A DNA stretch of 63,889 nt, counting the filler, from Collodictyon triciliatum (taxonomy: Eukaryota), in NCBI GenBank assembly GCA_043381765.1. It is 5 parts of 5 records of this genome, joined end to end, with 100 filler letters (N's around TTAATTAATTAA, not from the genome) between each part and the next. Parts side by side here need not be neighbours in the genome. Positions count along the whole stretch, not along the records: positions 17,080 to 34,043 come from JBHJMP010001500.1; 4 more parts are not named here. One strand, 5' to 3'. Position 1 is the first letter of the stretch. Each line of letters opens with the position of its first letter. Under the pieces are notes generated by a model. That model made no database searches. It had not been told where the DNA came from and saw nothing but the letters and a program-made list of their open reading frames with translations. The translations under genes were made by a program, and so were the position numbers. Shown in pieces: positions 3,051-45,748 of the stretch.

Positions 3051-3099
<49 letters not shown>

Positions 3100-7454: not shown

Positions 7455-7546
<92 letters not shown>

Positions 7547-9695: not shown

Positions 9696-9705
9696 ATCCC
9701 TCCAT

Positions 9706-16882: not shown

Positions 16883-17200
16883 GTATGTATGTATGTATGT
16901 ATGTATGTATGTATGTATGTATGTATGTATGTATGTATGTATGTATGTATGTATGTATGTATGTATGTATGTATGTATGNNNNNNNNNNNNNNNNNNNNN
17001 NNNNNNNNNNNNNNNNNNNNNNNTTAATTAATTAANNNNNNNNNNNNNNNNNNNNNNNNNNNNNNNNNNNNNNNNNNNNTATCATATCATATCATATCAT
17101 ATCATATCATATCATATCATATCATATCATATCATATCATATCATATCATATCATATCATATCATATCATATCATATCATATCATATCATATCATATCAT
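16883..17200. repeat. (TATG)n and (ATATC)n arrays flanking the gap
   Basis: Direct reading; different units on either side of the spacer. Confidence 0.9.
16980..17079. other. Assembly gap with TTAATTAATTAA six-frame-stop spacer (17024-17035)
   Basis: 100-bp N block with central spacer; identical blocks at 34044-34143, 55294-55393, 60138-60237. Confidence 0.97.
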
Positions 17201-17226: not shown

Positions 17227-19022
17227 GACCGCCTTCTTCGAGCAATGGACTTGAGCTCTAGACAAGACAATATCGTTGGAACTGTGAAGCGTGGTACTGG
17301 AAATATTCGAGGCATTTCCTTCAACCCAACCGAAAATGTGATACTGGCATCCGTGGTGAGACAAACAGCTAGCTATCCCGAGACTCGCTTTTTCTATGAT
17401 ACACCAGTGTTTGCTCTACAATTTTCAATCAACCCAGCCAGCGTCCATAATTATGCTTGTCTTCTAAAAGGATGTTGAGGGAGGTTCCTACGAGATATTC
17501 AATGTGCCTAAAGACTCTGGAAGCCAGCGCCAAGACATCCAGATAGAGACCCGCCGCGGCCAAGGAACTGGCGCTGTTTTTATGGCCCGCAACCGCTTTG
17601 CTGTCTTGGACAAGACACACGCAGTATTACAAGATTCAATCATGGCATCTGATGTTGAAACGTTATCATGTTTTTCAAATACATCTCGCTCGGTTCCTCC
17701 TTTGTACTTTTAATGATGTAAATTAATCCCTTAAACTTGCAGATCATCATCAAAAATTTCAAGAATGAAGTCACGAAAAAGATTGACGTTCCACAAAACA
17801 TCGATCAGATGTTCTACGCTGGTGCAGGTAATTCCATTTTCAAATTCGATTTTAATTTGTTTTTCATGCTCTCCCTCTTTGTTCACTCGGTCGTCGATCT
17901 TTCCAGCTTGAGCCTATTGTTTCCACATGTGTGATTCCTAATGAACCGCATCTAGGATTCGTGTTACTCAAGGGTGATGACCAGTTACTCTTGTTTGATA
18001 TTCAACAAAAGAAATCTGTCGGAGAAATTAACGTTACTGGAGTCAAATATGTATTTTGGTCAGATGATATGTCATACGCTGCCTTAATCAGCAAACACGG
18101 TTATTTCTTTTCCTTGTTCTTTAATCCTTGGAGGTGCTTGCCGTTTTGATGTCAGAATCTCGCACCTCTTTGTTCAAAAGATATATCTTTGTTTTATTCT
18201 TACCCCACTCTCTGAAAATGTTACTTATTTATGCCCATCTGCACAATTATCACAACGAAATATTCAGTGATTACTATTGTGAATCGAAAACTTGACCTGG
18301 TCAGCAACATTCACGAAACCATTCGCATTAAGAGTGGGATTTGGGATGACAACAACGTCTTTATCTACACAACCCTTTCACACATGAAATATCTTTTGCC
18401 ATGGGGGTATTTACTTTTTTATTTCTAATTTTAAGCCTGCCCTATTTTCAAAAAGACTTTTTGTTATGTTGTATAGAGATGAAGAAATAGTTCCTCATAT
18501 ATTCTTCAGACTTTTGAAGGTACATGCATTTGTGATAAGAGAAATTGCAACTAATCATGGACAACTTTGAATAGTGATTCTGGAGTCATTCGTACCATCG
18601 ATGCTCCTCTTTATTTGCTGAAAACAAAAGGAGACAATATATTTTGTATTGACCGTGACTATCGGTTCCGTGCATTGGCGATTCAACGCACTGAATTTAT
18701 GGTTGATTTTTTTTTTATTCATCGAGGAATTCCATATTCACAATCTTGAACAAAAACTAAGAAAGAAAAAAAAATGAGGACTATATACCTACATGTAATT
18801 GAGAAATAACCTGGCCTGTAATTTCCAGTTCAAGCACGCTCTTCACTTCCGAAGGTACGAAGAAGTATTGCACATTGTCAAAAACTCAAAGCTTCACGGT
18901 CAAGCCATCATTTCCTATCTCCAGAAGAAAGGATTTCCCGAGGTTATTAGTTCCTTCTTATTTTATCACCTTATTTATTCAACATACTGAATTTATAAAT
19001 CTAAAAATGAGTTCGCCGAACA

Positions 19023-19088
<66 letters not shown>

Positions 19089-22000
19089 CATCATCATTAT
19101 TATTATTATCATCATTATTATCATCATTATCATCATTATGATTATCGTTATCATTATCGAGAGGCACTTGTTCAATGCATATATTATGATTTATTTCATA
19201 TTTTATATCATTCAACACAGGTGGCCCTGCATTTCGTCAAAGATGACCGAGTTCGTATTAATCTTGCATTGGAGTGTGGTAATATTGAGGTATAATTTCC
19301 ATAACATTTTTCTTAATCGCTTACTCATTCATTAATATGAAGCTGAGCAAAGACCATGACATATAAAACTGAAGGTGTTCTTTACTAATATAATGAGAAC
19401 GGCACAGGTTGCACTTGAATCAGCCAAGAAGCTAGACGATAAAGATGCATGGAATAGGCTTGGCGCTGAATCGCTCAAGCAAGGAAACCACCAAGTAATT
19501 AATCTTTACTATTATTCTAAAGGGATGATTTCTTTACACCGGTTATCACTGTATGATTTGATAACATACTCGCATATTCTCCTAACATAAAGGTTGTGGA
19601 GATGGCTTACCAACGAACAAAGAACTTTGAAGGCCTATCTTTTCTATATCTCATTACGGGGAATACAACAAATCTATCAAAGATGTTGAAGGTTTTACAC
19701 TCTAGTTATTCTCTATCATATATCTCTTTTCTAATTGGTATACACGGGAATTATCCCAACTGTTTTGCTACATTCTAATGTGCGAAATTTAAGATATCGA
19801 AAATGAGGAATGATATCATGAGTCGTTTCCACAATGCACTATACTTGGGTGATATTTCCGAACGCGTTGCTATTTTAGCGGAAGCAGGATTGCGTATGTA
19901 CATATTTTTTTATATGTATTCATCGAAGTTAACATTAAAGCATTTAATAGAGTAAATTATAATAAGTATATTAATAGTAAAAAAGAAACAATTTTCATAA
20001 TGTATTATATGAACCAAAAAATCAAAACTGATCAAGAAAAAACTAATGCTCATTGAAGCAAAAAAAAAATAGTTTTCTGTTTGCTATTTTTTTTAAATAA
20101 ATTTAACATCAGTCCCACTTGCGTATACGCTCGCCAAGACTAGTGGATTGGAGAGGGAGACACAAATGCTTTCTCAACACTTGCCTGAAATTCCCGAGAA
20201 TTATTACAAACACGGTATTTATTGCGCATGAAAAATCCTCCAAAATCTTGTTCCTCTCATATCTCAATTATGGTGATGAAGCATTCTCATTTTTACTGAA
20301 AATAGTAATTGAAAACGAATTTTTTTTTTTTAAAAAAATAGAACCAAAATGTATTCTTCCCCCAATACCTATTCTACATGAAAGCAACTGGCCACTACTT
20401 ACAGTCTCGAAGGGATACTTTGATGGTACAATCTAAATATTGGTTACGTGGATAGCCCTTCAGTTCAAAATTTCTCTTCCTTATTTCCTTGTTTTCTTTT
20501 CTCTAAATATATGCATCCATTTTGATAAAAAAAACTTTTTCCTTTTATTCAATGGTGCTAACATTTTCAAGAAATTAATCTTCCAATCATCTTTGACCTT
20601 ATTAATCCCCATTCAATTCATTAAGGGCCAGCACCGGATTCATCAAGTCACATCGCTGCAGCGAGTGCATCTGTTCATTACACTGAAGAGGTTTCTTGTG
20701 ATGCTTTGCACTTGAATTTTTTTTTTTATAATGTGTATTATCGGAGCTACATCTATACATCTGTACCTTTTCTACTGGGTTCCATATGGTGTACTATTTA
20801 ATATACTCAGAGATATTGCAATTCATGAAATTTCGCAGGACGAAGGTGAAGGGGGCGCCTGGGGCGAAGACTTGAAAATTGGAGATGACGGTGTCGAGGT
20901 TTCTGCTGATGCAGAGCATGCTGAGGACGCTGAAGGCGGATGGGATGATGATTTGCAACTTCCAGACGTCCAGGTTTTCCCTATCTTCCTCACATATATC
21001 ATTCATGGCGTATCCTACGTCTGTGTTTATGTCTGTGTTTATCTCTATCTCTATCTCTATTCTCTATTCTCTATCTCTATCTCTATCTCTATCTCTATCT
21101 CTATCTCTATCTCTATCTCTATCTCTATCTCTCTCTATCTCTATCTCTATCTCTATCTCTATCTCTATCTCTATCTCTATCTCTATCTCTATCTCTATCT
21201 CTATCTCTATCTCTATCTCTATCTCTATCTCTGTCTCTATCTCTGTCTCTATCTCTATCTCCATGTATATTGAGATATGAAATTATATCAAACCATCCAC
21301 AATACCAGTCGTTTATCATTCAAACCACGAAATCAACTTAAAAAAAGAAAGAAGGAAATGCATACCTTCATATTGATATTTCATCTTTTATATATTTTCA
21401 AGTCTTAATATATAACAACACATTTGCTTCGGGGTTTTCTAGTTATCGTCTGGCAACTCGACGGCAGCCAGCGGAGGCAAGTCGGCAGGATTCGCGATGC
21501 CGTCTGGTGGAAACAGCTTTGGCCAAATCTGGTGCCAAAATTCGTCTCTCGCTGTAGACCACGCGGCTGCCGGCTCGTTCGAAACCGCGATGCAGCTTTT
21601 GCACAAACAAATCGGCGCCATCGATTTTGCCCCGTTGAAGCCTTACTTCTTCTCTGTATACATGGCGGCCTCATCGCAAATCTCGGCGATTCCATCTACT
21701 CCGCTACTGGGCTACGGCATGAATAGAAACTGGGCTGAGGCTGGAAAGCATGGTATGGGTGGTTTTGTTTGCTGATTAGAAACGTGTATAAAGCAAAGAA
21801 GATGAATATGTCAATATCTCCTTTTAATTAGTCACCTGAAACTCAAATCTCATTTTATTTCCCTACTCTCCTTTCGTGTAATTCCTTTTATTTACTCATT
21901 CATATATTGGTAATTTTAATCAGGCGGGGTGCCATCGGTTCCTTACAATTTACTTTCTTTGGTGGAGAAGTTGAAGAATGCTTACACATTGGTGACTGGC

Positions 22001-23265
22001 GGAAAGTTCACTGAGGCTCTTGTTTCGTTCCAACAAATCATCAATATTCTTCCTTTCTTGATTGTGTCTACAAAGCAGGAGGTCAACGAGGTGCTACTTT
22101 ATTCCCCCTTTTTTTTTCTTCAGATTTTTTTAAAAAGAAAAAATTTAATCAGAGCCATGTTTCAAACATATTTAGTTCCTAAGCGCCACCTATTTGCCCA
22201 TATGGCATGGCCTCAATGTAGACCGCGTGCGCTGAACATGCGATATCAGATATTCATTTCATCGAGTAACCACATAGGCTAAAGAGCTCCTTGGCATTTG
22301 CCGCGAATACATCACTGGGATTCGGCTTGAGATGGCCCGAAAGGAGGCCACCGACCCAGCGAGACAATCGGAACTTGCAGCCTACTTCACGCACTGCAAT
22401 CTGCAGCCTGTCCACTTAAGCCTCAGGTGAGTGTCTTCATGGACTGGCGCGTATATCCACACGATACGAAAATTGTTATTATTATTTTTTACATATTTTT
22501 TTTTAAAAAATTGGCATTCAATAAGCCTGGCAACAGGAGGTTAAGTATAATAAAATGCATATATAGCTGTACCTTTACATCCCTGTGATTGTTGAATCGC
22601 TTTCTTCCACTGCGCCACTATCTCATGCTGATAAATATTTTAACCGAGACAATACTGACATGCAGTCTCCGTTCGGCAATGAACTGCCACTTCAAAGTCA
22701 AGAATAATTCTACGGCAGCATCCTTTGCGCGACGTCTTCTCGAGCTGAATCCAAAGCCTGAAGTGGCCACCACAGTGAGCATCCAACACGCATATCCATA
22801 TCAGAAGGTCACCCGACTATGTATAATATGTTCCCCTGACATCGCTTCATTTTTGATGAAACCAGGCTCGCAAAGTGCTGCAACTTGCTGAGCAGGCAAA
22901 CTTCTCTCAAGAGCAGGTAAAAAAACACACTCACACACACCTACACAATTGTCCTAATTACCCTATTCGCAATAAAACAAAGTAAAATTATATAATAACA
23001 ACAAATAAAGAAAAGAATTAGAAGGGAAAGCAACGAAACAACCTCGTTCTGATGTTGGCTTCACCCCCGATAGAAACTCAACTATGACGAGCGCAATCCG
23101 TTTGTCGTCTGCGGGCACACACTGCAGCCACTCTACAAAGGAACAGCGATGGCCAAATGCTCGTACTGCGGCGCCTGCCACCAGACTCACCTGACCGGCA
23201 AAGTGTGCGGCATCTGCCGTGTCGGCGGAATCGGCACCGAATCAACCGGGCTCAAACTCCTCTAA
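17227..23265 (+). CDS. COPA: Coatomer subunit alpha, 5' (first WD40 propeller) portion missing at spacer gap
   Basis: About 19 in-phase exons: [121 protein letters not shown] and C-terminal Cys motif ending GLKLL* (TAA 23263-23265). Confidence 0.97.
21040..21262. repeat. Intronic (ATCTCT)n
   Basis: Inside COPA intron. Confidence 0.92.
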
Positions 23266-23657: not shown

Positions 23658-24001
23658 TCATCCCGAGTAAAGGTAGCCGAAGAAGATGAGGACAGCGATG
23701 CCAATCACAGTGCAGGAGACCAGACCCCAATACCCAAGGCTGGAAAGTGGCGGGTCCACGACGAAGACCTGTGCGGAGTCGGTTAGTGAATGCTTGGTTG
23801 ATAGGTTTGTGCCTTCTTGTATTCAAGTGCTTGTTTTCTCTCTTCTCCTATTTTTTTCTTTTTCGATTTATCTTTGTTTTTTTTTTTTTGTTATGGAAAA
23901 AGTATTGTTTGAGATAAAGCTTGAAACAAACGATAAGCTCGGTTTTCAAGTCACATTTTGACCCAGACACAACCTCGACGCGAAAGTGGTATAATTCTAC
24001 A

Positions 24002-24057
<56 letters not shown>

Positions 24058-27000
24058 TTTTTTGTTGAAGTAATGACATATGTTTTAACAAATTTAGTAT
24101 TTCATAGGGACGTAAAAGAATATTTGATATAGTTAGAAAAGTGCCGGGTTGTAATTATGAAACAAAAGGATGCAATGTGAGATTGAAATACGGTGAATGC
24201 AATTCCATCGTTATCTTCTGGATATAGAATCGCTTCGCGTTCGGATTCCGTCCCTTGGCAAGTCCCGCCAGAATTGACACCTGGATAGTGCATTTATTAG
24301 ATACTTATGGGTAGCTTTTTTACTATCCCTTAAATAATCGAAGTAATCGAAATAATCGAAATAATCGAAATAATCGAAATAATCGAAATAATCGAAATAA
24401 TCGAAATAATCGAAATAATCGAAATAATCGAAATAATTGAAATAATCGAAATAATCGAAATAATAGATATAATGAAAGCGTTAACCAAGAGTTCTTTTTC
24501 ATGGCCGCAAACAATACATGATTACACTGAAATCTCATCATCTCAAAAGCTAGATATATCCGTTTTTTTTATACGAGTCATGTATGTTCAGATGTATGTG
24601 ATTAGTATTTACTAGAAATGCAAAAGTCTGTTCGTGAATTCAGCTCTTTGACCCTGTAAGGAAGAATCATTTTTTGCTTTTGTCCGTTTTCATAAACAAG
24701 AAAATCTGGTTTGAAAATATCGCTGTAGTAAACGATTCTGACCTAAAATCGGGCAGCGGTTACATAAATATAAATATAAATATAAATATAAATATAAATA
24801 TATTCATACTGACAATATGTTAAAAAAAAACGATAATCTGCATCGTAATCTCTGCATACGTCTTTGATGCAGTCAGAGTTTTCCTCGAGCCAAGATATTC
24901 TCTGTTCTACTGAGCACCCACATTCCTCCTGATTCCTTTTTCCTGCACACTGTTTGAATTTGCCAGACTTTTTGCTAATTCCTAACATACTTCGATATTT
25001 TTCCCTGTATATTTAATTCCCATGAATTGAAAATTCTACAATCGAATCGTTCATATCAACCGATTAAAACAAATTTATGAGATTTCAGAGTGTATCATTC
25101 TTGAAATTAAAAATACTTTGAAGGGTCAGCGTTGTAAATATTGTCGCTGGTTGGAATCGCTATTCCATGTTTTGAAGGTGGGCGGTAGTTCACCTAATCG
25201 TAATTACCTTATTAATACCAGAAAGAGGGAGCAAGAAAGATTATCGACTAGAAACGCCTCAAACACAGCTTTGTCTACAATACTAATGAGACGTTAAGAA
25301 GTCTCTCTTTCGAATCCATTCGAGCGGTGTATGTGCGAATCATAGTTTTGATATATACCGGGAGGTTGTGCGATGCAGAGTCTCCATTTGAAGTGCGCTC
25401 TTTGCCAGACATGAAATTGTCAATATCATATGGAAAGTTTTCTGTGATGTACTTGCCTGGGGGGCATGTGAGCATTATTGTTGTAGTGACCAAGCTCTAT
25501 GTAATGCGAGGTACCAATTAGCACAGGTTTAACTTTTAAAAAATAATAAAGAGAATCATAATTCACTTTTAAAAAGGATATTGGTGTTACCTGTCTGCAG
25601 AGTAGAGAATATGGTTGGGGGAAAATGTATATTTGGGACACGCCCTAAATTACAGGACATGTGTTATGGCAGGAAACAACTATGCAGATTAAAATAGGAC
25701 GATGCCTGCTGAATGTATCTATGATTGTTTCATGGAAAAAGGACTAAAGATTCATTTCGTTGAATAAACTTTTTTTTTTTTTAAAAAAAACCTCTGGAAC
25801 TGACTCTGTTACATTGATGGAAAGCTTTCGTGGTACATAGGGAGATACAGGTACATATTCGTCAAAAACATTTATGATATTGGTGGAGCCACTGATGGAA
25901 GTACGAATTTCGGGTCCATTGGATGGGATTAAAGATGCCCCGATTTCGATCTGAATCGAAGGAAATATATTATCAGCACCCCTGTTCAAAATAGAATATA
26001 GATATGACAAGCTAATCGATTGTCATATGATTCTTTCAATTCTCTTCAATTTACCGATTTTCCGTGGTCGACGTAGGTGAGAATGCTTTCGCCAGCCATG
26101 GATGAAAAATCAGAGTAAGGACACTGAGCTGGCTGGATAGACCAAGACCTTATCTATATTATGTGAGACCAAGGAAGAAGTATGCCTCCTTAATTCAAGG
26201 ACTGGGTTTTCTGTCACAAAACATCATTTAAAAACACTAGTCAGACACAGAAAACTGCAGCATCACTTACAAAGCCTTGAGACGGAATCAAGCTGCTATT
26301 ATACCCAAGAAAAGTGCCATAAATTTTCCATTCAGTGATATTCTGATTGACACGAGTAAAATCTCTGGGAAATATGACCTAAATTACCAATATGTATTGG
26401 TATAATTCGATATAGTTGTTGATGCCGAATTCTGGCATAATTACATTAATATACACATATGATTAAATCCATATAAAAGCTAGTGCGGCTAATAGAGTGA
26501 AAGAGACTATTTTATGGGCATATTAATCTACCTTGGCCTGGAGTTCATTGATAATCTCACTAATTACGCATACATCGTCTTCAAAGTACAAAAGCATGAA
26601 CAAGTCTAGGTTGGCATGGAAAAGCGAGTCAATTTAAAACATAAAATATAAGAGTGAGATACAAAAGTGAAGCATAAGTAAAGCCTATGATTATATCGTT
26701 CTCACGATTTTCTCCAAATCGAAAAGCTTCAGAAAAAACAGTCGCTGTATAATTTGATCCATCAAAGGCAATCGACATCGCATCATCAAACATAGCCAGT
26801 GCATAGTCTCTATTCATGGAAAAGTCAAAGACATCCCAAGAGCCTGCAGGAGCCTCGCATGCTGTGGGTGGAAAAATAACCAGCCCAACCGCTTCGTTCG
26901 ACGAAATTATATCTGTAATCAGAATAGAGCCAGCGTTGATCATGACTGTAGAAAGGACATTTGATTTAACCCAAGTGACGGCCCCATTGGTGGTTTTCAA

Positions 27001-30000
27001 CTTCAATGAGACATTCAAAGCAGTACGACAGTCTTCGTCCAAGACAATGTCCGATAAGATGGCTTTGTCTCCGGCAGACACCGATGGCGTCATTGGTGCG
27101 GACAGAGAAACACGAAATCCGTGTGAGCTGATGTGGTAGTCGCCCACTTGACGAAGCCGAGTTTGTGGATACAGCTGAGTGATTAAACCCGAGCCGTATT
27201 TAAAGACAAGTGAGTTATATTTGATACGTTCATCAAAAATTGTCTTTGATGCACTATCGTATGCACGGCTGGCAAAATACAGCTGTATCATATCACCGCC
27301 GGTGTAAAAAGGTATCAAAATGTCGCCTTCTTGAAAACCAATAGTCTGGTCTATCAAAGAGAACTCAAGAGCAGTGTTTAAAGGGAATATATAAGTTCCA
27401 TATACATCCCCATCGCCCCTGAGCCAAACAAAGAAAAAAAGGCATTAGTTTAGCTTCTTGGATGCAAAATGGTCTATATGATGTACAGTCCCTTTTAAAA
27501 AGCAAACATAATCATAATACACTCGAATATGTGTCAATTAGTCATACCATTCAGTGTCTGATGAGTGGTCCTTCATTATCGAGCCATCACTAACTAGGTA
27601 ATAAAATTATTTTTTGTTTGTTTTTTTCGCGTGTCTTGTTTTGTCACCAAGTATTCTACTTATTTTGCAAAAGGTTTTCTTTTAAATGAACATACCATTG
27701 AACCTGTTCTCGGATAATCTAATGTAAGTAAATAGAATGTTGCCCCATGAATCAAACTGTACTGTTCGGAAAGTTGGAACTGGAAGCAGTTCGATATGCG
27801 GTAATGGTGTGATGAACAAGTCCATCAGCCCGCCATCGGAAAATACACGTAGATAGAAAATGCGCCCCTGATTATAACCAAACATTTTTACAAAAGCTTG
27901 GGTCAGGATTTCATCAGAACAAAATTAGAAATAAAAACCAAGCGAAAATGTGCAAAAAGTACACAAGAAAAAATATTAAAAAAAAAAAAAGAGACAATAC
28001 ATGGATAAAAGTAACAGAAAGAAGGATGTTAAAGCGAAAACAGGTTTCAATATTTTTTTTTTTTGGAAACATACATTGGTGGAAACGAAGCCCAAAGACA
28101 AATCTTTCTTCAGAAATGAAACATCGACAATCATTTCCCCTATATATGTATGACAATAGCGATTTCATTGAATACCAGGGTAAATTGATTTCGACAGATA
28201 TTTACATATGTTCAGATGTAGAAATGGCATAAAATAAACCTTCCAGTAAGTCGATGTTGAGCCTTGAAAAAGATTGCGAGGAGTCATACGAAATCCACAC
28301 ACTATTTCCATAAACGACTGATATTCCCCCCATGTCAAGCAGGTAAATACCATACAAATTTGTACCACTAATTAATTATAAATTAATCGAAATGAATACA
28401 ATTTCTTCTATCATGAAGCTTTAAATATTCTCTGTTGACAAGAAGCAACAGCGGCATCAAAATGTGTATTTTTTTCCCCATAAATGGGCATTTCATGATA
28501 AAAATATTTGCATGGTGTGACATAAAGTTTGGCTCATACCCATCCTTGAAATCAAACGCCAGTTTCAAATCAGAACTTAGACCTGTAAAAATGAAGAATC
28601 TAGATTCGACAGAGACAAGCGCAACAGCAGAGTTAATCAGATAATCAAATACGATATCGATGATGTCGTAATTTCTTGTTGAGTTCAAAAATATTTGTCT
28701 CCAGTCGTTGTATGGAAATCCAGAGGAAACATAAAGCGAAACGGAGCCTTTTTTGTTGCGATACTTTAAAGAGACATATGCAGTGTTATTGTACACTTTC
28801 TTTGGCAGGCACGAGTTTCCTGTGTATATGTGCGCCAATCGATTTGTGTCAGAATCAACTCCAAGTTCATTTCTTCTGGCCATTCCATCAAACTCTTCGG
28901 ATATGTTAAGACTCACAAACTGAGGAGTTGATATTTTTTCGTTTAAGATAGGGGCATAAAAAAGGCCAGCAGATGTAATGACAAATATAGAGTCTTGATT
29001 CATCTGGACATCGGTGACAAGAATAGAACCACAATCTTTCCCAATAAGGTGGCATATTGACCCCTTTTTTTCCGACGACCCAAGGACATCAACGAGAACT
29101 GAATTGGGTCCGTTTCCATCTTGGGTCAAGAGCGCATACTTGTTTACAGATTCGCTTGCCATTAGCTTTGTCTTTTCTACATTATTTGTTTTCCCCAAAG
29201 CCCTTGAAAACGGAAAAGACGACAATAAGGTAATGGAGGTATATGTCGCGCATGTGGCCATACTTCGCCTAATCGATTTGACTTTGCTTAATTCATCTTC
29301 TTTGAAATGGAGCATCTAATAAACATGAATAAAAAATAGCATTAAGAATACACAATTGGTTACAAGGTACTTGACTCACTGATTTTCTTTTTGTTTCAAT
29401 AAATCGATTTCAAATGAAGAAAATATATATCCAAAACCTGTTTGAATAGAGTAGCAGAGGTTTGGTCAACACCGGATATTGATACATCAATATATGTAGG
29501 AGATATGCATTCACTCATGATGTTAACTCCCTTAGACTCTACGGTAATTTGTGTGGTGGTGATATTCGACAGAGTGTGTATTCTAGTTCTCCAAATACCT
29601 TGAGTTGGCTATAAATAATATGAAAAGGCATGGATATGCATGTGCTCAATATTGTGTATAATTTCAGGATTAATATTTAGTTACACAGGCTCAACGGCAA
29701 TATCTAAATCTGTACGATCAATTACATCGAACGCCCAAGGTGATGTCTGGTGGATAGCTGGATTAGCGAAATAAAGGCTTGGATATTCTCCGAGTGAGTG
29801 AAACCGATTTCCGAGTCTGTAACAAGGGAATATACAGTCAGTAACAATAGCTTTGGCAAAACTTATGTCACTTTGCACTATACCATTAGATTTGAAAACA
29901 AAAAAAAAAACAAGAACGTTTGTAATTTGTCTAAATATCATCAACAAGGATGAATTTAATGATTTAATCACAATACAGTAATGTATTTATCTCTATTTTA

Positions 30001-30753
30001 GAAAAAAAAAGGCATTTCATTTTGAATAATCATCGAGACTCACACCACAGAGGATGTTCCAGTTTCTTGCGACTGGTCCTTAATTGAGCATTCAATCGTG
30101 TAGTCTTTATTCATATCCAGCGACACAACATGGAAATCTGTCTCATTGACGATTCTTGAGACGTATTTCAAACAACCTATGTTTCAAATAAGTCACAAGA
30201 CACGACAAATTAACACAGCCCACAACATCAGTGGAAATCTACATGTTTTCAAATGCATTAAAAGAAGAAGAAAATGAATCGTGATCAGAGCGTGCCAAAA
30301 GATTGGGTGTTTTTTCAATCGAAACGAACAGTCGCATGGTTGGATGCTGATGAAGCGAGTCCAAAAGGGAGCTGGAAGGTCATCTTTAGTGGTGAATTCA
30401 TCGCGGTCGCTGACATAGACCGATATCTGGTAGATTCCAGGCTCCGTGAAAGAGTGTACATGGACCGGCGCCGTGGAGCGGAACGACTCCGAACCGAAGC
30501 GAAAGAAAAAGAAAAGCGGATCGGCAGGGTTTGTGTTATACGAGAGAGAGGCGTCCAATCGAATTTCTGTGGATATAAACCGCGTCAGAGCGAATATAGA
30601 AAAGAAGATAAAGGGCGAAGTTGTATCATAGCTATGAATGTTGTTGGTAATTTGAAGAAAGAATAAAAAGCAACTTGTATGTGGATTGACGGTTCATGTT
30701 TTATTTTATTTCTGTATTCAACCCTTTTATTATTATTCTTATTATTCTTCTTC

Positions 30754-30816
<63 letters not shown>

Positions 30817-30822
30817 TATTTA

Positions 30823-30870
<48 letters not shown>

Positions 30871-31037
30871 GAATTGAATCTACCGTCGAAAGGCCTCAAA
30901 ACATCCTTTGTGTGATAATCGCTCGACCAGTGCACAATCAATACAGGGGAAGCGGTGGAGGAAAGGACGAGGCTTAAAACTGAACACGCAAAAACCAAGC
31001 GGAATGCGAGAAAGGCACGATGTTGCGGTTCAGTCAT
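23658..31037 (-). CDS. CATSPERB: CatSper channel auxiliary subunit beta homologue (signal peptide, large ectodomain, single C-terminal TM)
   Basis: ATG 31037 with signal-peptide-like MTEPQHRAFLAFRLVFACSVLSLVLSSTA. C-terminal exons read NLP|VNYRPPSKHGIAIPTSDNIYNADPSK|EKYRSMLGISKKSGKFKQCAGKRNQEECGC...SDC, ...VKELNSR..., GVELYHFRVEVVSGSKCDLKTELI, VFVVDPPLSSLGYWGLVSCTVIGIAVLIFFGYLYSG* (TGA 23658-23660). Colinear with the animal CATSPERB C-terminal motifs as I recall them. Confidence 0.88.
24332..24463. repeat. Intronic 9-mer (AAATAATCG)n
   Basis: Inside CATSPERB intron. Confidence 0.92.
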
Positions 31038-34537: not shown

Positions 34538-36876
34538 TTAAGCGTTTGCATGTTGGATCCATCTCTCGGTTGTTCTCTTGTGCGTATCTCTTGGATGCAG
34601 TCGCGTCTCCAACGCCCGTAGCGCTCCAGTGTTTTGGAAGCCTCCCACGCGCTTTATAGTGCGACGCCCAGGCTGCGAGTGATATTCAAACACCGATCGC
34701 GCGCTGGCGTGTTTGCCGTGAAGCTTTCGGAGTGATTCCAGGAAAGAAAGGTGCATTGTGCACCGTATAACAAATACCGTGTCTAGATGCCCAGACTACC
34801 TTATTCACTCGGAGTTGCTTTTTTCGGCCAAAGGGCACAAAGAGTATACCAGACTGCATGGATTCATTGGCACCGCGAAGCTACAAGTCCGCAAGCTTGT
34901 GTTTGTTGGAGGGTAGCTCAAACTGCACGAGAATCAGCAAGATTTCCATTCAACGATCGAATATATACTCACCCGAGTAGAGACACCTGGTCATGTGACT
35001 GTCTTGGGTCGGAATTCTACCAGGTAGTGTGAGCATAAGATATACGTATCCAGACTCGCCCTTCTGTTTTGAACTTTTGCTGATTTTTCTTGTCTTTCTT
35101 CAATACTAATCGCACCCGCTGCAGTTGCTGCTTGCCCAAAAGCTTTCCGATGCGAGTTCTCTTTTATTATTTCATTTATTCTGTGTAGGGTGGAGTGGCT
35201 TTGTTTTTTCTTCTCCGTTTCCGTATCCTCCTATTAAACATTCATTTGTAATCAATTGGATTTATAAATAAAACCAACAGGCGTTTTGTAGGACCCGTCG
35301 ACGAATTCGTCATCCTTCCAGCCACCTTCCAACACCGTCCCATCGTGGTGAGTGAATTTGCCTCTACCCTCCTTGGATTGCATTTACAAAGAAACAGTTA
35401 GAGTCTGCGCTACATATGCATATGTACACGCACACGGACACTCTTTTTCTCAAGACTTCGCGTGCTCTTATATGGTCTGTGATGAATAACATTAATGCCA
35501 ATGGACTTAATGAATTACTCGTTTTCCAATCACCCAGGTCCCTTCAAATTGCGATACCATTGGAAATCCATCTTCCTCCTTGTACCACACCATTTTGCCC
35601 TTGCCGTCCATTTGGTCCCCCTTCCTAAAGCGAGTGTATAAAGTTCATAATGACCCGAGTTGCACTTCAGGTCTTGTAAGCACATTCGTAACAAACGCTT
35701 CCTTTTTTTTAAAAAAAGAAAAAACAATAGAAAGAGTCAATTTGTGATTTTAATTTATATCTTTCATGTGTGCATATGATTAATACCATTCTCCTTCGTA
35801 TCGTGAGTTCTTGTCAGGAAAGACATAGGTACCCTTTCCATGCTTCTTATCCTTTTTCCATTCGCCCTTGTAGTAACTGCCATTGGACCATACTCTCACT
35901 CCTAGGCCTTCGATATGATCGTCTTCGAACTTACCCTTGAACACACTATACCAAAGTAAAGTATTTGGTGATGAATTCCCAACATGTTTTTTTTTTTTTT
36001 TGAGATTATCAGGACGGTTCATCTTCATCCAGATTTTGTTTTCCTTGATTTCATGTGCGCAATTTGGTTGAGGTTTTTAGGTTTTTTATTATTGTTTTTG
36101 CTTTATTTTATTTTTTATTTATTGCCTCTATTTAATAATAATACTCATTAACTCTAATCGTAAAGGTTAAAAAAAAATTATTTTTAGTAGAATTAGTAAA
36201 TATAACCTTCCATCTGGCCAGTACAGTATTCCGTGACCATGTAATTTATCTCCAAGCCATTGTCCTTCGTAAATCCTTCCGTCTGGAAAAAGGTAAGTTC
36301 CCCACCCAGACCGTTTGTTATCCTTCCATTCCCCCTATGAATTGACGGAATATGGTTGTGAAAATGTTTCTAAAATCCGTTAAGAGGATAGAAATGGAAG
36401 AATTGCCAGAGTCGATGAAATCGATGAAAGGGTTCAGGGCGGTTTGATTTTCATGAAAAAAGAGGCCACATGCCTGATATTGATAGCGGTCAAACTTGTT
36501 TTTGCGACTAGTCATTACTGTTCCCATAGCGTTTTCTATGATAGGCCAAACATATATGCCTTTACCATTGATGGAGTTGTCCACCCATTCTCCAACATAT
36601 ACGCGTCCGTTGTCCCATCGATACATTCCAAATCCATGCCTCTTATTTCCCAACCAGGTGCCTGTGTACACGCCACATGATTCCTTCCTAATGATTATAA
36701 TTTCTTTTAAATATTTTTGGAGTAATTGAGAGCATAAGGTAGATAGTGAGACGGTGTTGATTCATTGCGTCGTATTGTCGGACTACGACGTTGTTATGTT
36801 TGTGGTTGTAAGCATTTACACAAGACAATCGACGTGTGTGCGATATTTAAAAGAACAGCCCAGTGCACGGATTGTA

Positions 36877-36926
<50 letters not shown>

Positions 36927-38027
36927 NNNNNNNNNNNNNNNNNNNNNNNNNNNNNNNNNNNNNNNNNNNNNNNNNNNNNNNNNNNNNNNNNNNNNNNNNN
37001 NNNNNNNNNNNNNNNNNNNNNNNNNNNNNNNNNNNNNNNNNNNNNNNNNNNNNNNNNNNNNNNNNNNNNNNNNNNNNNNNNNNNNNNNNNNNNNNNNNNN
37101 NNNNNNNNNNNNNNNNNNNNNNNNNNNNNNNNNNNNNNNNNNNNNNNNNNNNNNNNNNNNNNNNNNNNNNNNNNNNNNNNNNNNNNNNNNNNNNNNNNNN
37201 NNNNNNNNNNNNNNNNNNNNNNNNNNNNNNNNNNNNNNNNNNNNNNNNNNNNNNNNNNNNNNNNNNNNNNNNNNNNNNNNNNNNNNNNNNNNNNNNNNNN
37301 NNNNNNNNNNNNNNNNNNNNNNNNNNNNNNNNNNNNNNNNNNNNNNNNNNNNNNNNNNNNNNNNNNNNNNNNNNNNNNNNNNNNNNNNNNNNNNNNNNNN
37401 NNNNNNNNNNNNNNNNNNNNNNNNNNNNNNNNNNNNNNNNNNNNNNNNNNNNNNNNNNNNNNNNNNNNNNNNNNNNNNNNNNNNNNNNNNNNNNNNNNNN
37501 NNNNNNNNNNNNNNNNNNNNNNNNNNNNNNNNNNNNNNNNNNNNNNNNNNNNNNNNNNNNNNNNNNNNNNNNNNNNNNNNNNNNNNNNNNAAAAAAAAAA
37601 GAAGGCGCTCGTCCACAAAAACCAGTGTACGGTAAGTAAAAGAGAGACGAAGAAGGGCTCCTACAAACAACTCCATGCGCACATAGTCCGGCACAGTCTG
37701 CATCGAAACCTCCACAGGGAACGGCGCAGACGGCGCGGGCGGCGCAGGGATGAGCGCGTACGGCCTGAAAGCCTTTTGGTCGGACCCGCCCAGCCCGGAG
37801 TCGTGTGTCTCTGCAGGGAAAGGCGCGGGCGAGCCGAACGTCTCCAGCAGAACCGCGCTGCTTGAGCCGGGCGGCGTTGCGTAGAAAGGTGCGGCCAGAT
37901 TCACGCGCGGCTGCGGCGAAGGCGGAATCGTCGTCACGGCCGAGCGCGGAGCAGACTCTGCAGAGCCGTTCTGCCTCAGCGACGACGACTGCGTGAAGCC
38001 CAGATCGGTGACGGAGAGGGAGTTCAT
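34538..38027 (-). CDS. MORN-repeat protein with Pro/Ser-rich N-terminus; interrupted by N gap 36927-37590; 3' end uncertain
   Basis: Exons about 35280-36671 give repeated YxGxWxxxxxxGxGxxxWxxG units (YTGTWLGNKRHGFGMYRWDNGRVYVGEWVDNSINGKG; YKGEWKKDKKHGKGTYVFPD). The GC-rich ORF from ATG 38027 on the same strand is the probable first exon. The C-terminal exons (34.5-35.2 kb) could not be joined unambiguously. Confidence 0.8.
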
Positions 38028-38337: not shown

Positions 38338-40703
38338 CTAGTTAGGGCTATACTTGCTCGATTCGCCAGTTTGCGCAGACGGGGTGCCAGCCTCTGTCTC
38401 TTCGGAGATGTGAAGAAACTTCATCTGGAACACTGTTGCTTTGGGGGTCGATGCCTCAGGCATAGAGTCCAGCCTCAATGTACGTATGGAGGGGCCTTGA
38501 AGGTTGGTGGAAGCTTTCTTCTGAAGGAATGCTATGCGGGAGTCTGTATGTGACACGCTAGAGAGATATAGTGCAGCACCTATCGCAGCTGGTACAAAGA
38601 TAAGGTTTGATGCATAGGAGAAATACATGTTCCCTCCAAATGGCAAAAGGACACAGCCAACACCAAAACCCACATAAACTAGCAGAGCTGGGCGCAAAGG
38701 CAAGCAGAAAGATGTACTTGTTACGTCCAAGACACGAAAGATGTACAAAATGTACACATCAGTAGCAGCATAGCTTAAAGGAAGCATGGCTATGAATTCT
38801 CCAACCAAGGTTAAGATAAGTGCAACAGTGGTGGTAGAAACTCTATGCCGCAAGGTTCTTTTGTTGAAAATAAGAGCTGATGCAATCATCCAGATGGGCA
38901 AGCCAGTGAAACTTCTTATCTTAGAGAACATAGATGTCTGCTCATGGAAGAAATAGAAAGAAAAAGAACAACGTGAATAGAACTAATTTGAATGTATCTA
39001 AAAAGGGGTAAATGATAGGATATGTAATGTCATCGACTTATTGATCGATTGTATATTTGCAATATATGATAGAAGTAAGGTAAGTATACGTCATGTATTG
39101 TGATGTCCGGAATGTAAAGTATGGCATTTGTGATTATCATGAATATCAATGAAGCAGTGATAAATGAATGGGACCTATGTCAAATGCATCGGTGAATAGT
39201 TGAAATGCATATATTATTTGATCATTCGATAGACATGAAGGTCAATATCTGCAATATTAATTTAAATTGTACAAGTATGAGGATATTAAATGTCATAATT
39301 TTCCACCTGCTCGTAATAAATGATATATACTCTTCTTCGGCCTTGTTATCGATGAATTTCATCCTTTTATACTGTAATCTTAATGATATCCTCAATTCAC
39401 GCTCTTTGTGCAGGATATAAATTGGAGATAACAGAAGCGAGGTGTCATTAACTATATTCGTATTCAGTGGGCAATTAAAAAAAATGGACGCTTTAGCGGA
39501 GGGATACGCCGTTTCTAAATAAACTCTATTGATGAATTGTAAAAAGTGGCAGAGAAGAGAAGAGAAATCTTAATTGTATCTTATACTATGCTCAGCAATT
39601 ATTATGGAGCGCAACTGCATTCTTCTATACATGCAGGAGGAGTAACATAACACAACACCGCAAGCCGCAGAAGAGAGTAGTGACATTGTATGAAACATAA
39701 ATATTGACCGGGAATTTTCCGACATATCCATTGCAGAGTATCTAGTGTAGGACAGAGAAATTTTATTTGTAATTTCTACAGAGTATGGAGTAAAAAGCCA
39801 CCACCATCCGTAATTTTTTATATATACAAAAAATAAATATCGTATCACCCTATAGATGCAACCAACCCGCCACAATAATCGTAAATAGACATATTTTTTT
39901 TTTAAAAAAAAAAAAGAATAAATAAATTAATACGTGATAAAGACGGCAGCATTGACCGCCAAAGCATGTCGAAAGTACAGTCTCAAGACGAGAGGGCCGC
40001 ACCAGCAAATGAAAACCAACGAAGTCGGACTTTCAAGCCAGTTATCATCAGAGACCCGGATCAGAATAACAGTAAAAGCACCCCAAACATACAATAGCAA
40101 ATTTAGCCTTTCGATTCGCCATCCGGCCTCTGATGATGTGGCTCGAGAAACAACCGGAGCAGAAGGCATGGTGGCTGGCGATGCTACGAGTAGAGAATGA
40201 TCGAGGCCTTCAAGGGAGCGCTTTTCATTCAGAGTCCACATACTGACGCCAAACACAACCACCATCTGCGCAGCCCGAGAATACAATGACGGGCCAGATA
40301 GCGTGGAGAAAACAGACAGCATGTATCCAACAGAGGCAAGAAGAAACAGTTGGCAGCTGAGATTCAAGCGCCTGATGCGGTCGTAGTAGCAATAGACACC
40401 AAACAGCTCCTCGGTTTTTTCGTCCTGGAAAAGTCCCTTCCAGCGGCTGAGAACCACTCGCTGCATCAAAGCTGCCTCCAGATGCCCGTTTTCGCGCTCA
40501 AACTGCTGGACACGTAAGAGATTCTGCACAGTCTGAGACATGGACGCCCTGACAATCGCCCCACGAGAAAGTGAGTTGACTCGAGACTTTGTTTCTGGTG
40601 GCTCTTGGCTCGACCACGCAACTAATGAGGGGCTGCGTCTTGGTTCCTCTGTATTCGAAGAGTCCATTCCAGAGCCTGTCCTGTGGATACTGCACGCAAT
40701 CAT
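38338..40703 (-). CDS. Polytopic membrane protein made of two tandem cassettes resembling class-III nucleotidyl-cyclase 6TM anchors; no catalytic domain
   Basis: About five exons. Cassette 1: WKGLFQDEKTEELF..Y, then TMs, then YSSCMYRRMQL. Cassette 2: RMKFIDNKAEEEYISF, then TMs, then SVSHTDSRIAFLQK. A short disordered tail follows, with the stop at 38338. Confidence 0.6.
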
Positions 40704-42005
40704 TAGTGGTGCAACGATGGCAAGTCAACTTTTTAAAAGTTGGGGGTAGGGTGGCTAGTCCGACTCTCTAGAATGATATGTTCATCCAGGGATTCCATCC
40801 GCGCATGGGGTGGTTGGCAATCAAAGGGTTGTTATGGGTGCCATGTGGGCAAATAGGAATAGATAAACTTGTGCATGGAACGTCGCAAAGCAAGGTTGGC
40901 AACAGAGAAAAGAAGGGCCAGCCGAACGCAGTGGATCGACTTGTAAGCAAGTGGGGTTTGATGGGATGGACTCGGAGGAGCAGAAAAGCTTGTGATTGAA
41001 GCGTTCGGGGCTAATTGTTGGTACGATCAGGTTGCCTGCGTCAGCCAAAGTACTTTGTCGAGGATTGCCCAAGGTAACCCCATTTTGAGTGGGATATATC
41101 AGTAGTATTGACAAGCACACGATTGGTCAACGCCCCACCCCGCTTTGCTCGATTGTCTTAAGGACTGCGAAAATGTGAAAACATTCGCCCTTTTTTGCTT
41201 CCCTCATTTCTCCATTTCATTAAACCTTTATCACATTTAACCGCGCGCTTCGCTATGCTTCTCATGTTTCGGTTGCGCATTTCTAAAATGTAAAATCTGA
41301 ACTGGCACCATGTTTGGAAAGTTGAACGGATTTTTCAAGAATATTGTCTTCATATGTACCCTTTTTTTGAATGTTCTACTCTTGAATAGACATTTCCGAA
41401 ATTGGGTATCAAGTATTGTATTTCCAAGGCATTTTTTTGGAAAGTGCCGTTCATCTGAGGGCAGAAAGTGTTGATTCTGTATCTGTCCCAGCCCCGAGGT
41501 CAGGCGAACATACAAAGACCCCACGCGCGGGCTAAGATAATAAGAATAGTAATGGTAATAATAATAGAGGCATTAGCCATGGTACAAATATAGATTATAA
41601 TCGTAGATTTTTCCTTTATTCCACTCAAAGTAATGATAATCACAATTATAATATTAGAAATCAACAGTTATAGATCTATAGGTGAGATGACGTTCATAAG
41701 AGCTACAAAAGCCTCGTTGCTAAATATTAGAATAGTTCAAAATGTGTGTTAGGGTCTCCCAGATTTCAAATTAGCTCGACTTTATTCTTGGGGAGGGAAG
41801 GGGATAGGAGGGAGACTCATAATACAATAGGCGAATGATTATTCTTTGCATAGATTAGGTGGCTGCCAACCAAGTTCGTTGGAATTGCTCCCAAGGACTT
41901 TGTGCTGTGCATTGTCATGGGTGGTGATAAAGACAATGATTCACTATAACTATTGTCACATGGGCAGACTATACAAGGGCAATTTTTAAATCATCAGTAA
42001 CGTGT

Positions 42006-45652: not shown

Positions 45653-45748
<96 letters not shown>

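What the first reader, a model, noticed from the sequence alone, without database searches (positions are those of the whole stretch)
23658..31037. Complete CatSper-beta gene in a compact, apparently non-animal genome
Seen: a multi-exon ORF from signal peptide to a single C-terminal TM. Its C-terminal exons (NYRPPS.G.AIP..DN.YNADPSK, SKK.GKFKQC...EEC.C...SDC, G.EL.HFRV.V.SG..C.L, PL+TM) are invisible as a unit in the ORF track; some middle junctions were not traced base by base. Knowledge: CatSper is the sperm-flagellar Ca2+ channel, and beta is an obligatory auxiliary subunit. Outside animals the complex has been reported only patchily (e.g. the apusomonad Thecamonas and the stramenopile Aurantiochytrium). 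Inference: this organism has a flagellum and encodes a CatSper complex; if its lineage is not yet known to have one, this extends the range of the sperm channel.
Basis: partly seen in the sequence, partly recalled or inferred. Interest (0 to 1): 0.85.

Follow-up and report, generated by a model that had tools for sequence, protein, structure and literature searches.

The report
CatSper-beta gene in a Diphylleia-like protist
This is an intact 23-exon gene for the beta auxiliary subunit of the CatSper "sperm" calcium channel, carried by a non-animal flagellate whose closest sequenced relative is Diphylleia rotans, which modestly widens the known range of an already ancient channel family.

Summary
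On the minus strand, ATG 31037 to TGA 23660-23658 can be spliced into 23 exons. All 22 introns are GT-AG, 78-332 nt. The product is 1326 aa with no internal stop, an N-terminal hydrophobic leader and one C-terminal membrane helix.

Two small C-terminal exons each exceed the Pfam CATSPERB_C cut-off (40.5 and 42.8 bits). They hit only CatSper-beta chains in the PDB. Folded models of two large exons have CatSper-beta (9ubw_E, 7eeb_E) as top structural matches.

The spliced protein aligns end to end with an unannotated 1298-aa protein from the Diphylleia rotans transcriptome (38% identity, 951 bits). It aligns with mammalian CATSPERB over the last ~350 residues (~120-129 bits). The neighbouring COPA gene is also closest to Diphylleia, so the host is a non-animal, probably CRuMs, flagellate.

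No genome is held and read-laying failed, so the pore subunits and expression are untested. The literature already dates CatSper-beta to before the unikont/bikont split. This is a new member of a known kind, with a PKD-like N-terminal domain as its one variation.

The parts
23658..31037 (-). Whole CDS span of the CatSper-beta gene: 23 exons, 3981 nt coding, 1326 aa plus stop.
   Evidence: Spliced. One blastp HSP covers model residues 29-1325 against residues 25-1297 of P0001 (Diphylleia rotans): 37.9% identity, 951 bits.
30884..31037 (-). E1, aa 1-51: start codon, hydrophobic leader (aa 7-35) and start of the mature chain.
   Evidence: First ATG of the ORF. Hydropathy. Residues 29-51 align with P0001 residues 25-47. 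No tblastn HSP of its own.
30330..30566 (-). E2, aa 52-130: PKD-like domain.
   Evidence: Pfam PKD_4 E 5.2e-5, 23.6 bits, below the cut-off of 27. The same domain in P0001 scores 33.5 bits, above the cut-off. tblastn HSP of 92.8 bits spans E2 and E3.
30044..30176 (-). E3, aa 131-175.
   Evidence: tblastn with P0001 fixes the CDC|CL junction.
29687..29816 (-). E4, aa 176-218.
   Evidence: tblastn: LGNRFHSLGEYPSL against LGRRFHALGEYPTL.
29438..29608 (-). E5, aa 219-275.
   Evidence: Same tblastn HSP as E4, 48.1 bits.
28540..29315 (-). E6, aa 276-534: first part of the beta-propeller ('2nd') domain.
   Evidence: tblastn 146 bits. AF2 model pLDDT 73.7. Foldseek top hits 9ubw_E at 1.1e-6 and 7eeb_E at 9.7e-6. 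No Pfam hit.
28240..28367 (-). E7, aa 535-576: propeller.
   Evidence: tblastn 43.5 bits, 40% identity.
28075..28139 (-). E8, aa 577-598.
   Evidence: tblastn 26.2 bits, 50% identity, linked HSP set.
27696..27867 (-). E9, aa 599-655.
   Evidence: tblastn 64.3 bits, 50% identity.
27548..27593 (-). E10, aa 656-671: 46-nt micro-exon.
   Evidence: Proposed by the splice search. Restores ...DTEW|GDGD against P0001 ...GREW|GQNA. No HSP of its own.
26706..27418 (-). E11, aa 672-908: 'head' domain.
   Evidence: Pfam CATSPERB_head 25.5 bits, cut-off 27. Library search best hit P0001 at 5.6e-21. AF2 pLDDT 69.3. Foldseek 9ubw_E 3.7e-10 with TMq 0.57, and 7eeb_E 4.6e-9.
26532..26605 (-). E12, aa 909-933. 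Least certain exon, together with E13.
   Evidence: Phase-compatible GT-AG junctions. Aligns without gaps but weakly inside the single HSP.
26271..26378 (-). E13, aa 934-969.
   Evidence: Same basis as E12. Canonical GTAAGT donor.
26055..26153 (-). E14, aa 970-1002.
   Evidence: tblastn: RSWSIQPAQCPYSDF against RAWSIQSAPCTFSEF.
25792..25950 (-). E15, aa 1003-1055: Ig-like region.
   Evidence: tblastn. Lies inside the 971-1323 stretch that aligns with mammalian CATSPERB.
25591..25644 (-). E16, aa 1056-1073.
   Evidence: tblastn: GVSQIYIFPQPYSLLCRQ against AISQVFLYPQPYSVLCPQ.
25359..25496 (-). E17, aa 1074-1119.
   Evidence: tblastn 72.8 bits together with E18.
25117..25193 (-). E18, aa 1120-1145: the NYRPPS...YNADPSK motif of the CATSPERB_C domain.
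   Evidence: Pfam CATSPERB_C E 2.7e-10, 40.5 bits, HMM 39-63. PDB phmmer hits only 9ubw_E and 7eeb_E, E 1.3e-5.
24860..25004 (-). E19, aa 1145-1193: the SKKSGKFKQC...SDC cysteine motif of CATSPERB_C.
   Evidence: Pfam CATSPERB_C E 5.2e-11, 42.8 bits, HMM 65-115. PDB hits only CatSper-beta chains, E 0.002.
24613..24742 (-). E20, aa 1194-1236.
   Evidence: tblastn 89.4 bits together with E19.
24192..24280 (-). E21, aa 1237-1266.
   Evidence: Weak tblastn with P0012 only (E 1.2). Aligned within the single HSP to P0001.
23932..24003 (-). E22, aa 1267-1290: the G.ELYHFRV motif.
   Evidence: Pfam CATSPERB_C E 0.0082, 16 bits, HMM 192-215. tblastn 58% identity.
23658..23768 (-). E23, aa 1291-1326 plus the TGA stop: VVDPPL motif, single membrane helix, and a tail of only a few residues.
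   Evidence: tblastn 49.3 bits, 53% identity. Hydropathy 1300-1325.

Best explanation
The region encodes an intact orthologue of CatSper-beta. This is the type-I, single-pass auxiliary subunit whose large ectodomain forms part of the extracellular canopy over the four-subunit CatSper Ca2+ channel.

The host is a non-animal flagellate whose closest sequenced relative is Diphylleia rotans (CRuMs).

Shown here:
- The gene structure.
- The leader-to-membrane-helix topology.
- CATSPERB_C sequence membership.
- CatSper-beta-like folds for the head and propeller parts.
- End-to-end collinearity with the Diphylleia protein.

Inferred:
- The protein pairs through its C-terminal helix with a CatSper pore subunit in the flagellar membrane.
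- It helps assemble and stabilise a Ca2+ entry channel that tunes flagellar beating, here in a free-living flagellate rather than in sperm.

The N-terminus carries a PKD-like domain where mammals have the 'CATSPERB_1st' domain.
For: Sequence membership:
- Pfam CATSPERB_C is hit by three separate exons at successive HMM positions: 39-63 (40.5 bits), 65-115 (42.8 bits) and 192-215 (16 bits). The cut-off is 27.
- PDB searches with two single exons return only CatSper-beta chains, 2 of 2 hits each.
- Exon E11 finds 13 proteins at E<=1e-3 among 1.84 billion representatives. All 9 of the 9 that I scanned carry CATSPERB_head, 6 of them above the cut-off.
- A profile of E11 plus 10 of those relatives hits only CatSper-beta in the PDB (E 4.9e-16), over both the 2nd and head domains.

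Fold:
- The AF2 model of E11 has 9ubw_E and 7eeb_E as top Foldseek hits (3.7e-10 and 4.6e-9, TMq 0.57-0.58). The next hit is 5.6e-4 with TMq 0.29.
- The AF2 model of E6 also has 9ubw_E and 7eeb_E on top (1.1e-6 and 9.7e-6).

Full-length comparisons:
- Spliced product against Diphylleia P0001: 37.9% identity over 1303 columns, 951 bits, 3% gaps.
- P0001 itself hits CatSper-beta in the PDB at E 7e-34 and has the same PKD plus head plus C layout.
- Spliced product against mammalian CATSPERB: about 120-129 bits over model residues 971-1323.
- The window+Diphylleia pair profile hits 38 of 38 mammalian CATSPERB sequences.

Host:
- The COPA exon is 72% identical to Diphylleia, against 64% for the second Diphylleia-transcriptome COPA and <=60% for the other hits.
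- Whole-gene tblastn gives 66.6% identity to Diphylleia, against 37-45% to fungal COPA.

Role of beta in animals: the canopy over the pore and the CatSper4-beta interface are described in passages of PMC13674862.
Against: - No expression or splice evidence.
- Five of the 23 exons lack an HSP of their own.
- Pfam CATSPERB_head is below its cut-off for the window (25.5 against 27).
- CATSPERB_1st, _2nd and _Ig-like give no Pfam hit for any window piece tested.
- Single-sequence phmmer of the ORF containing E11 against the PDB gave only noise: nociceptin-receptor fusions at E 0.1.
- The window+Diphylleia pair profile reached significance in 0 of 38 mammalian sequences for the 2nd and head regions.
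- The alignment used to fold E6 contained 7 mammalian CATSPERB rows out of 14, so that model may lean towards their fold.
- The pore subunits CatSper1-4 and the gamma/delta/epsilon subunits could not be sought, because no genome is held.
- Host placement rests on two genes, and for COPA on a word-indexed search that favours whatever shares 5-mers.
Confidence: 0.7

Rival explanations
1. It is a true CATSPERB-family protein, but in this lineage it works without a CatSper pore. With its PKD-like N-terminal domain and large beta-propeller ectodomain it could be a stand-alone surface receptor or adhesion protein.
For: - No CatSper1-4, gamma, delta or epsilon subunit could be looked for.
- I recognised none among the window's ORFs.
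- The N-terminal domain differs from the mammalian one: it is PKD-like. PKD domains are common in surface proteins (my own knowledge).
- Only the last ~350 residues are strongly similar to animal beta.
Against: - The part conserved best across about 1.5 billion years of divergence (my own estimate) is exactly the stem and membrane-helix region. I recall, but did not check in any paper here, that this region contacts the pore subunit in animals; the passages I read mention only a CatSper4-beta interface and do not locate it.
- Published surveys report that beta co-occurs with CatSper1-4 and shares their pattern of lineage-specific loss (PMC5362262 passage).
Confidence: 0.2
2. The contig comes from an animal or another already-surveyed lineage, for example as a contaminant, so the gene is an ordinary metazoan CATSPERB.
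For: CatSper-beta is best known from animals. Every named hit of the word-indexed search with the Diphylleia C-terminal domain is mammalian (37 of 38 named).
Against: - Mammalian CATSPERB matches only the C-terminal ~350 residues at 120-129 bits, while Diphylleia matches end to end at 951-1021 bits.
- The unbiased library search ranks Diphylleia first by 13 orders of magnitude.
- The neighbouring COPA is also closest to Diphylleia.
- The domain layout with an N-terminal PKD is shared with Diphylleia, not with mammals.
Confidence: 0.03
3. The locus is a decaying or unexpressed relic whose open frame is an artefact of choosing splice sites to keep it open.
For: The splice sites were chosen by me without RNA evidence. 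The first automatic model was wrong in places. Five exons lack their own HSP.
Against: - 18 of 23 exons are independently placed by tblastn with a transcript-derived protein.
- The joined product aligns over 1303 columns with only 3% gaps and 60% positives.
- All 22 introns are GT-AG and there is no frameshift or stop.
- The conserved cysteine and NYRPPS motifs are intact.
Confidence: 0.03

Closest known systems
Mammalian CATSPERB (mouse CatSpermasome, PDB 7eeb chain E; 9ubw chain E)
   Same: - Type-I layout: leader, large ectodomain, one C-terminal membrane helix and a very short tail.
- The CATSPERB_C motifs are present (NYRPPS..., KQC...C.C...SDC, ELFHF+V).
- The head and beta-propeller folds have these chains as best structural matches.
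- About 120-129 bits over the last ~350 residues.
   Different: - About 210 residues longer than mammalian CATSPERB (1326 against ~1050-1115 aa).
- The N-terminal domain is PKD-like instead of 'CATSPERB_1st'.
- The 2nd, head and Ig-like regions are too diverged for the Pfam models.
- The host is a free-living protist, not a sperm cell.
Diphylleia rotans EukProt protein EP00002_P002970 (P0001; 1298 aa; carries only a Trinity transcript name)
   Same: End-to-end collinear, 37.9% identity. Same PKD_4 plus head plus CATSPERB_C layout and the same C-terminal helix.
   Different: Only 38% identical, so it comes from a different and fairly distant organism. It is a transcript-derived protein with no gene structure, whereas the window gives the 23-exon genomic structure.
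NCBI KAI9366886.1 (P0012, 910 aa), named 'cation channel sperm-associated protein subunit beta protein family-domain-containing ...'
   Same: Carries CATSPERB_2nd, head and C domains. 29% identity over 658 columns, 245 bits.
   Different: Lacks the N-terminal ~400 residues, including the PKD-like domain. The tool did not show its organism.
The other CatSper canopy subunits (gamma, delta, epsilon)
   Same: Same general plan: ectodomain with a beta-propeller plus one membrane helix. 7eeb_F appears as a weaker structural match to the E6 model (7.5e-4).
   Different: No sequence search here returned any of them. Every PDB sequence hit was chain E, which is beta.

Membership tests
CatSper-beta (CATSPERB) | CATSPERB_C domain (PF15149). 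| tested here: met
   E18 scores 40.5 bits (HMM 39-63) and the ORF holding E19 scores 42.8 bits (HMM 65-115). Both are above the cut-off of 27. E22 scores 16 bits (HMM 192-215).
CatSper-beta (CATSPERB) | CATSPERB_head domain (PF22830). | tested here: met
   Pfam gives 25.5 bits, just under the cut-off of 27. The AF2 model of E11 (pLDDT 69.3) has 9ubw_E and 7eeb_E as top Foldseek hits at 3.7e-10 and 4.6e-9, with TMq 0.57-0.58 and rmsd 3.3-3.5 A. The feature is met by fold and by its relatives, not by the Pfam threshold.
CatSper-beta (CATSPERB) | Beta-propeller '2nd' domain (PF21548). | tested here: inconclusive
   No Pfam hit for E6, E7 or E9. The AF2 model of E6 (pLDDT 73.7) has CatSper-beta chains on top (1.1e-6, TMq 0.48), followed by generic propellers, but its alignment held 7 mammalian rows out of 14. 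The A1 profile hits 9ubw_E residues 233-427, but that part of the profile comes from relatives and not from the window.
CatSper-beta (CATSPERB) | Ig-like domain (PF22831) between head and C. | tested here: inconclusive
   No Pfam hit on the exon pieces tested. However, phmmer aligns model residues 971-1323 to P0041 residues 650-1019, which includes its Ig-like domain at 663-769.
CatSper-beta (CATSPERB) | N-terminal 'CATSPERB_1st' domain (PF21541). | tested here: not met
   The E2 to E4 pieces give no CATSPERB_1st hit. E2 gives PKD_4 at 23.6 bits. The Diphylleia orthologue has PKD_4 at 33.5 bits. This is a peripheral domain, and the fungal-type P0012 lacks the region altogether.
CatSper-beta (CATSPERB) | Type-I topology: cleavable leader, single C-terminal membrane helix, short cytoplasmic tail. 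| tested here: met
   Hydropathy peaks only at residues 7-35 and 1300-1325, plus one borderline window at 493. The chain ends at 1326. No dedicated signal-peptide predictor was available.
CatSper-beta (CATSPERB) | Beta, and not gamma, delta or epsilon, is the best match among the CatSper subunits. | tested here: met
   All PDB sequence hits are chain E, which is beta: 2 of 2; 2 of 2; 2 of 2; the top 2 of 6; the other 4 are PKD domains.
CatSper-beta (CATSPERB) | Co-occurrence and assembly with the CatSper1-4 pore subunits. | not testable with these tools
   No genome is held for the window.
CatSper-beta (CATSPERB) | Expression and localisation in the flagellar membrane. | not testable with these tools
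No localisation data exist.

The most novel reading that the evidence does not exclude
Diphyllatea/CRuMs flagellates keep a working CatSper-type flagellar Ca2+ channel with its extracellular canopy. On this reading the PKD-headed, ~1300-aa beta subunit shared by this organism and Diphylleia is the ancestral architecture, from which the shorter animal beta (with its 'CATSPERB_1st' domain) was derived. The 'sperm channel' would then be a general steering channel of ancestral eukaryotic flagella that became restricted to gametes only later.
Probability: 0.35. Interest if true: 0.55.

Novelty: new member of a known kind. Interest (0 to 1): 0.38.

Why it matters
CatSper is studied almost only in sperm. 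How it is regulated outside animals is described as unknown (PMC6660944 passage).

This locus gives a complete genomic gene model for the beta subunit in a lineage that branches beside Amorphea. It adds a sampling point for dating the auxiliary canopy subunits. It also shows which parts are truly conserved (the stem, the C domain and the membrane helix) and which are replaceable (the N-terminal domain).

It does not overturn the published view that the complex is ancient. It fills in that picture.

Tried and rejected
- Word-indexed search with the 310-aa ORF (which holds E6) among longer proteins: 0 hits from 2018 candidates.
- ESM Atlas with E6: best score 0.86 to unnamed bacterial clusters, below the level that counts. 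A beta-propeller family appeared at rank 30 and is only a lead.
- My own codon-usage and splice dynamic-programming gene finder. It put E2 in the wrong frame and mis-set several boundaries. I kept only the micro-exon E10 and some C-terminal acceptor sites, after checking them against the Diphylleia protein.
- My first manual choices for the E4 start (29930), the E9 start (27896) and the E9 end (27704) were replaced for the same reason.
- The look-up of sequencing runs: 6 rows hold part of the stretch. The best two are coded organisms A and B from one study, with shares of 0.43 and 0.23. The rest are <=0.11, in freshwater and subsurface metagenomes and one metatranscriptome. None was laid, so none is evidence of habitat or expression.
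- The search of earlier findings returned nothing for this genome.
- phmmer of the ORF holding E11 against the PDB gave only chance-level hits.
- The window+Diphylleia pair profile against 38 mammalian CATSPERB sequences gave 0 of 38 significant domain hits in the 2nd and head regions.
- Of the 13 library hits, four (P0003, P0004, P0006, P0010; multi-stretch matches of 3-7 pieces) were left out of the Pfam scan and the alignments without being tested.
- Cai et al. 2014 and 2015 (PMC4169769, PMC4355082) are not held. I know them only through citations in papers I read.
- The supplements and figure supplements that list the species surveyed could not be seen. They may already include further protist lineages.
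Full report
**What is there**

The region 23658-31037 holds a minus-strand, multi-exon eukaryotic gene. Stop-to-stop frames and the sequence itself show:
- a leader ORF whose first ATG is at 31037;
- two long exons of 258 and 237 codons;
- many short exons;
- a last exon that ends in a hydrophobic helix followed by TGA at 23660-23658.

**Gene model**

I traced junctions by hand and then ran my own splice/codon-usage search, which proved unreliable. I then corrected everything against the closest homologue found, P0001, using tblastn.

The resulting model has:
- 23 exons and a 3981-nt CDS, giving 1326 aa and one terminal stop;
- 22 GT-AG introns of 78-332 nt (median about 138 nt).

Eighteen of the 23 exons are placed by their own tblastn HSPs. 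E1, E10, E12, E13 and E21 are placed by phase-compatible GT-AG sites and by fitting without gaps into the full-length alignment.

Hydropathy shows a leader at residues 7-35 and a single C-terminal helix at 1300-1325, with only a few residues after it.

**Family identity**

Pfam results:
- CATSPERB_C is matched by three separate exons at successive profile positions: E18 at 40.5 bits (HMM 39-63), the ORF holding E19 at 42.8 bits (HMM 65-115) and E22 at 16 bits (HMM 192-215). The cut-off is 27.
- E11 gives CATSPERB_head at 25.5 bits, just under the cut-off.
- E2 gives a sub-threshold PKD domain at 23.6 bits.
- Eight of the ten pieces, and three of the four window pieces, gave nothing.

PDB sequence searches:
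- E18 alone (E 1.3e-5) and the E19 ORF (E 0.002) hit only CatSper-beta chains (9ubw_E, 7eeb_E).
- The E11 ORF alone gave only noise.

Library search:
- A full HMMER scan of 1.84 billion representative proteins with E11 found 13 proteins at E<=1e-3.
- I scanned nine of them on Pfam. All nine carry CATSPERB_head, six of them above the cut-off. Four multi-stretch hits were left untested.
- A profile of E11 plus ten of these relatives hits only CatSper-beta in the PDB (E 4.9e-16), across the 2nd and head domains.

Structure:
- The AF2 model of E11 (pLDDT 69.3, pTM 0.61) has 9ubw_E and 7eeb_E as its top Foldseek matches (3.7e-10 and 4.6e-9, TMq 0.57-0.58). The next hit is 5.6e-4 at TMq 0.29.
- The AF2 model of E6 (pLDDT 73.7) also has the same two chains on top (1.1e-6 and 9.7e-6). 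They are followed by generic beta-propellers and by another CatSper canopy chain, 7eeb_F.
- The E6 model came from an alignment with 7 mammalian rows out of 14, so I count it as consistent rather than independent evidence.

Full-length comparisons inside the script box:
- The spliced product scores about 120-129 bits against mammalian CATSPERB over residues 971-1323.
- A window+Diphylleia pair profile hits 38 of 38 mammalian sequences through that C-terminal third. It hits 0 of 38 significantly in the propeller and head regions.

**Closest relative and host**

The best hit by far is P0001 (E 5.6e-21 for E11; the next hit is 6.7e-8).
- Its public accession is a Diphylleia rotans EukProt transcript-derived protein of 1298 aa that carries only a Trinity name.
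- It has PKD_4 (33.5 bits), CATSPERB_head and CATSPERB_C (176 bits).
- It hits CatSper-beta in the PDB at E 7e-34.
- The window's product aligns to it in a single HSP: residues 29-1325 against 25-1297, 37.9% identity, 60% positives, 3% gaps, 951 bits.

The gene's neighbour is COPA on the plus strand, with exons from 17227 to 23262. The two genes lie tail to tail, and COPA's last aligned codon ends about 395 nt from the CatSper-beta stop.
- One COPA exon has its two best matches in the same Diphylleia transcriptome (72% and 64%). All other hits are <=60%.
- Over the whole gene, identity is 66.6% to one Diphylleia COPA, 51.8% to the second and 37-45% to fungal COPA. These figures include intron read-through columns.

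So the contig is consistently from a non-animal organism whose nearest sequenced relative is Diphylleia (CRuMs), but which is clearly a different taxon. This placement rests on two genes, and for COPA on a word-biased search. A proper phylogeny was not possible with the sequences at hand.

**How it most likely works**

[quoted passage not shown] A CatSper4-beta interface is also described. Both points come from passages of PMC13674862.

The window's protein keeps the same overall order: propeller, head, Ig-like/stem region, C domain, membrane helix. Conservation is strongest in the last ~350 residues.

I infer that it plays the same assembly and canopy role for a flagellar CatSper-type channel in this flagellate (about 0.65-0.7). 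This step is inference.

The main rival (about 0.2) is a family member that has lost or never had a pore partner and acts as a surface protein.

**Comparison with what is known**

Mammalian CATSPERB has the domain order 1st, 2nd, head, Ig-like, C. The window's protein differs in three ways:
- it has a PKD-like N-terminal domain instead of '1st';
- it is about 210 residues longer;
- its middle domains are beyond Pfam's reach.

On distribution, from passages I read:
[quoted passage not shown] Thecamonas, Allomyces and Aurantiochytrium are among the genomes surveyed (PMC5362262).
- CatSper regulation in non-metazoans is described as unknown (PMC6660944).

The primary survey (Cai et al. 2014) is not held, and supplements were closed.

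Full-text searches for CatSper together with Diphylleia, Collodictyon or CRuMs each returned 0 papers. In the broader six-term search, none of the 20 papers listed out of 94 contained the word CatSper.

**Verdict**

The host is non-animal, probably CRuMs. The inference that a whole complex is present is untested.

The family and its deep origin are already in print, and the Diphylleia orthologue already sits unannotated in a public proteome. This is therefore a new member of a known kind, with a modest architectural variation, and not a surprise to a specialist.

Noticed in passing
window 17227-23262 (+): COPA (coatomer alpha) gene split into at least 17 small exons. Only residues ~338-1205 are present. 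The N-terminal WD40 part is lost at or beyond the run of N near 17000. COPA lies tail to tail with the CatSper-beta gene, and its last aligned codon ends about 395 nt from the CatSper-beta stop.
   Followed up: partly
proteins P0036 and P0037 (Diphylleia rotans EukProt): The Diphylleia transcriptome holds two distinct full-length COPA proteins. One is 66.6% and the other 51.8% identical to the window's COPA. They may be paralogues, or one may come from prey or a contaminant in that transcriptome.
   Followed up: no
window 24330-24480, 24005-24060, 30700-30870, 24770-24810: The introns of the CatSper-beta gene are packed with simple repeats: a 9-nt unit (CGATTATTT) repeated about 15 times, an A-run of about 50 nt just before exon E22, (ATA)n in intron 1, and (TATTTA)n. 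The whole window is unusually rich in microsatellites that read as LSLS, HHHH, YYYY and similar in ORF lists.
   Followed up: no
window 38341-40724 (-) and 35783-36761 (-): Two long exons (214 and 265 aa) encode a multi-pass membrane protein with no Pfam hit. Just downstream on the same strand are MORN-repeat exons. It is unclear whether these form one gene. It is not recognisably an ion-channel pore.
   Followed up: partly
window 46000-48000; ORF 47275-47517 (+): A GC-rich island (0.52-0.54, against 0.30-0.45 elsewhere) holds a NADAR-domain ORF (69.6 bits) opposite a long, compositionally odd ORF on the minus strand.
   Followed up: no
window 2640-5000 (+), 7139-9700 (+), 10718-11353 (-), 43500-46340 (-), 48729-49055 (-), 52083-52370 (-), 58369-58677 (+): Ordinary eukaryotic neighbours: M16 peptidase, ABC1/COQ8-type kinase, LRR_6 protein, a protein kinase with a NEK-like motif (the NEK call is my own reading), VPS9, DEP and RhoGAP domain exons. 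I recognised no other CatSper component.
   Followed up: partly
window ~16990-17080, ~36930-37580, ~51100-51230, ~55470-56310: Runs of N (assembly gaps) interrupt the scaffold. One of them removes the 5' part of COPA.
   Followed up: no
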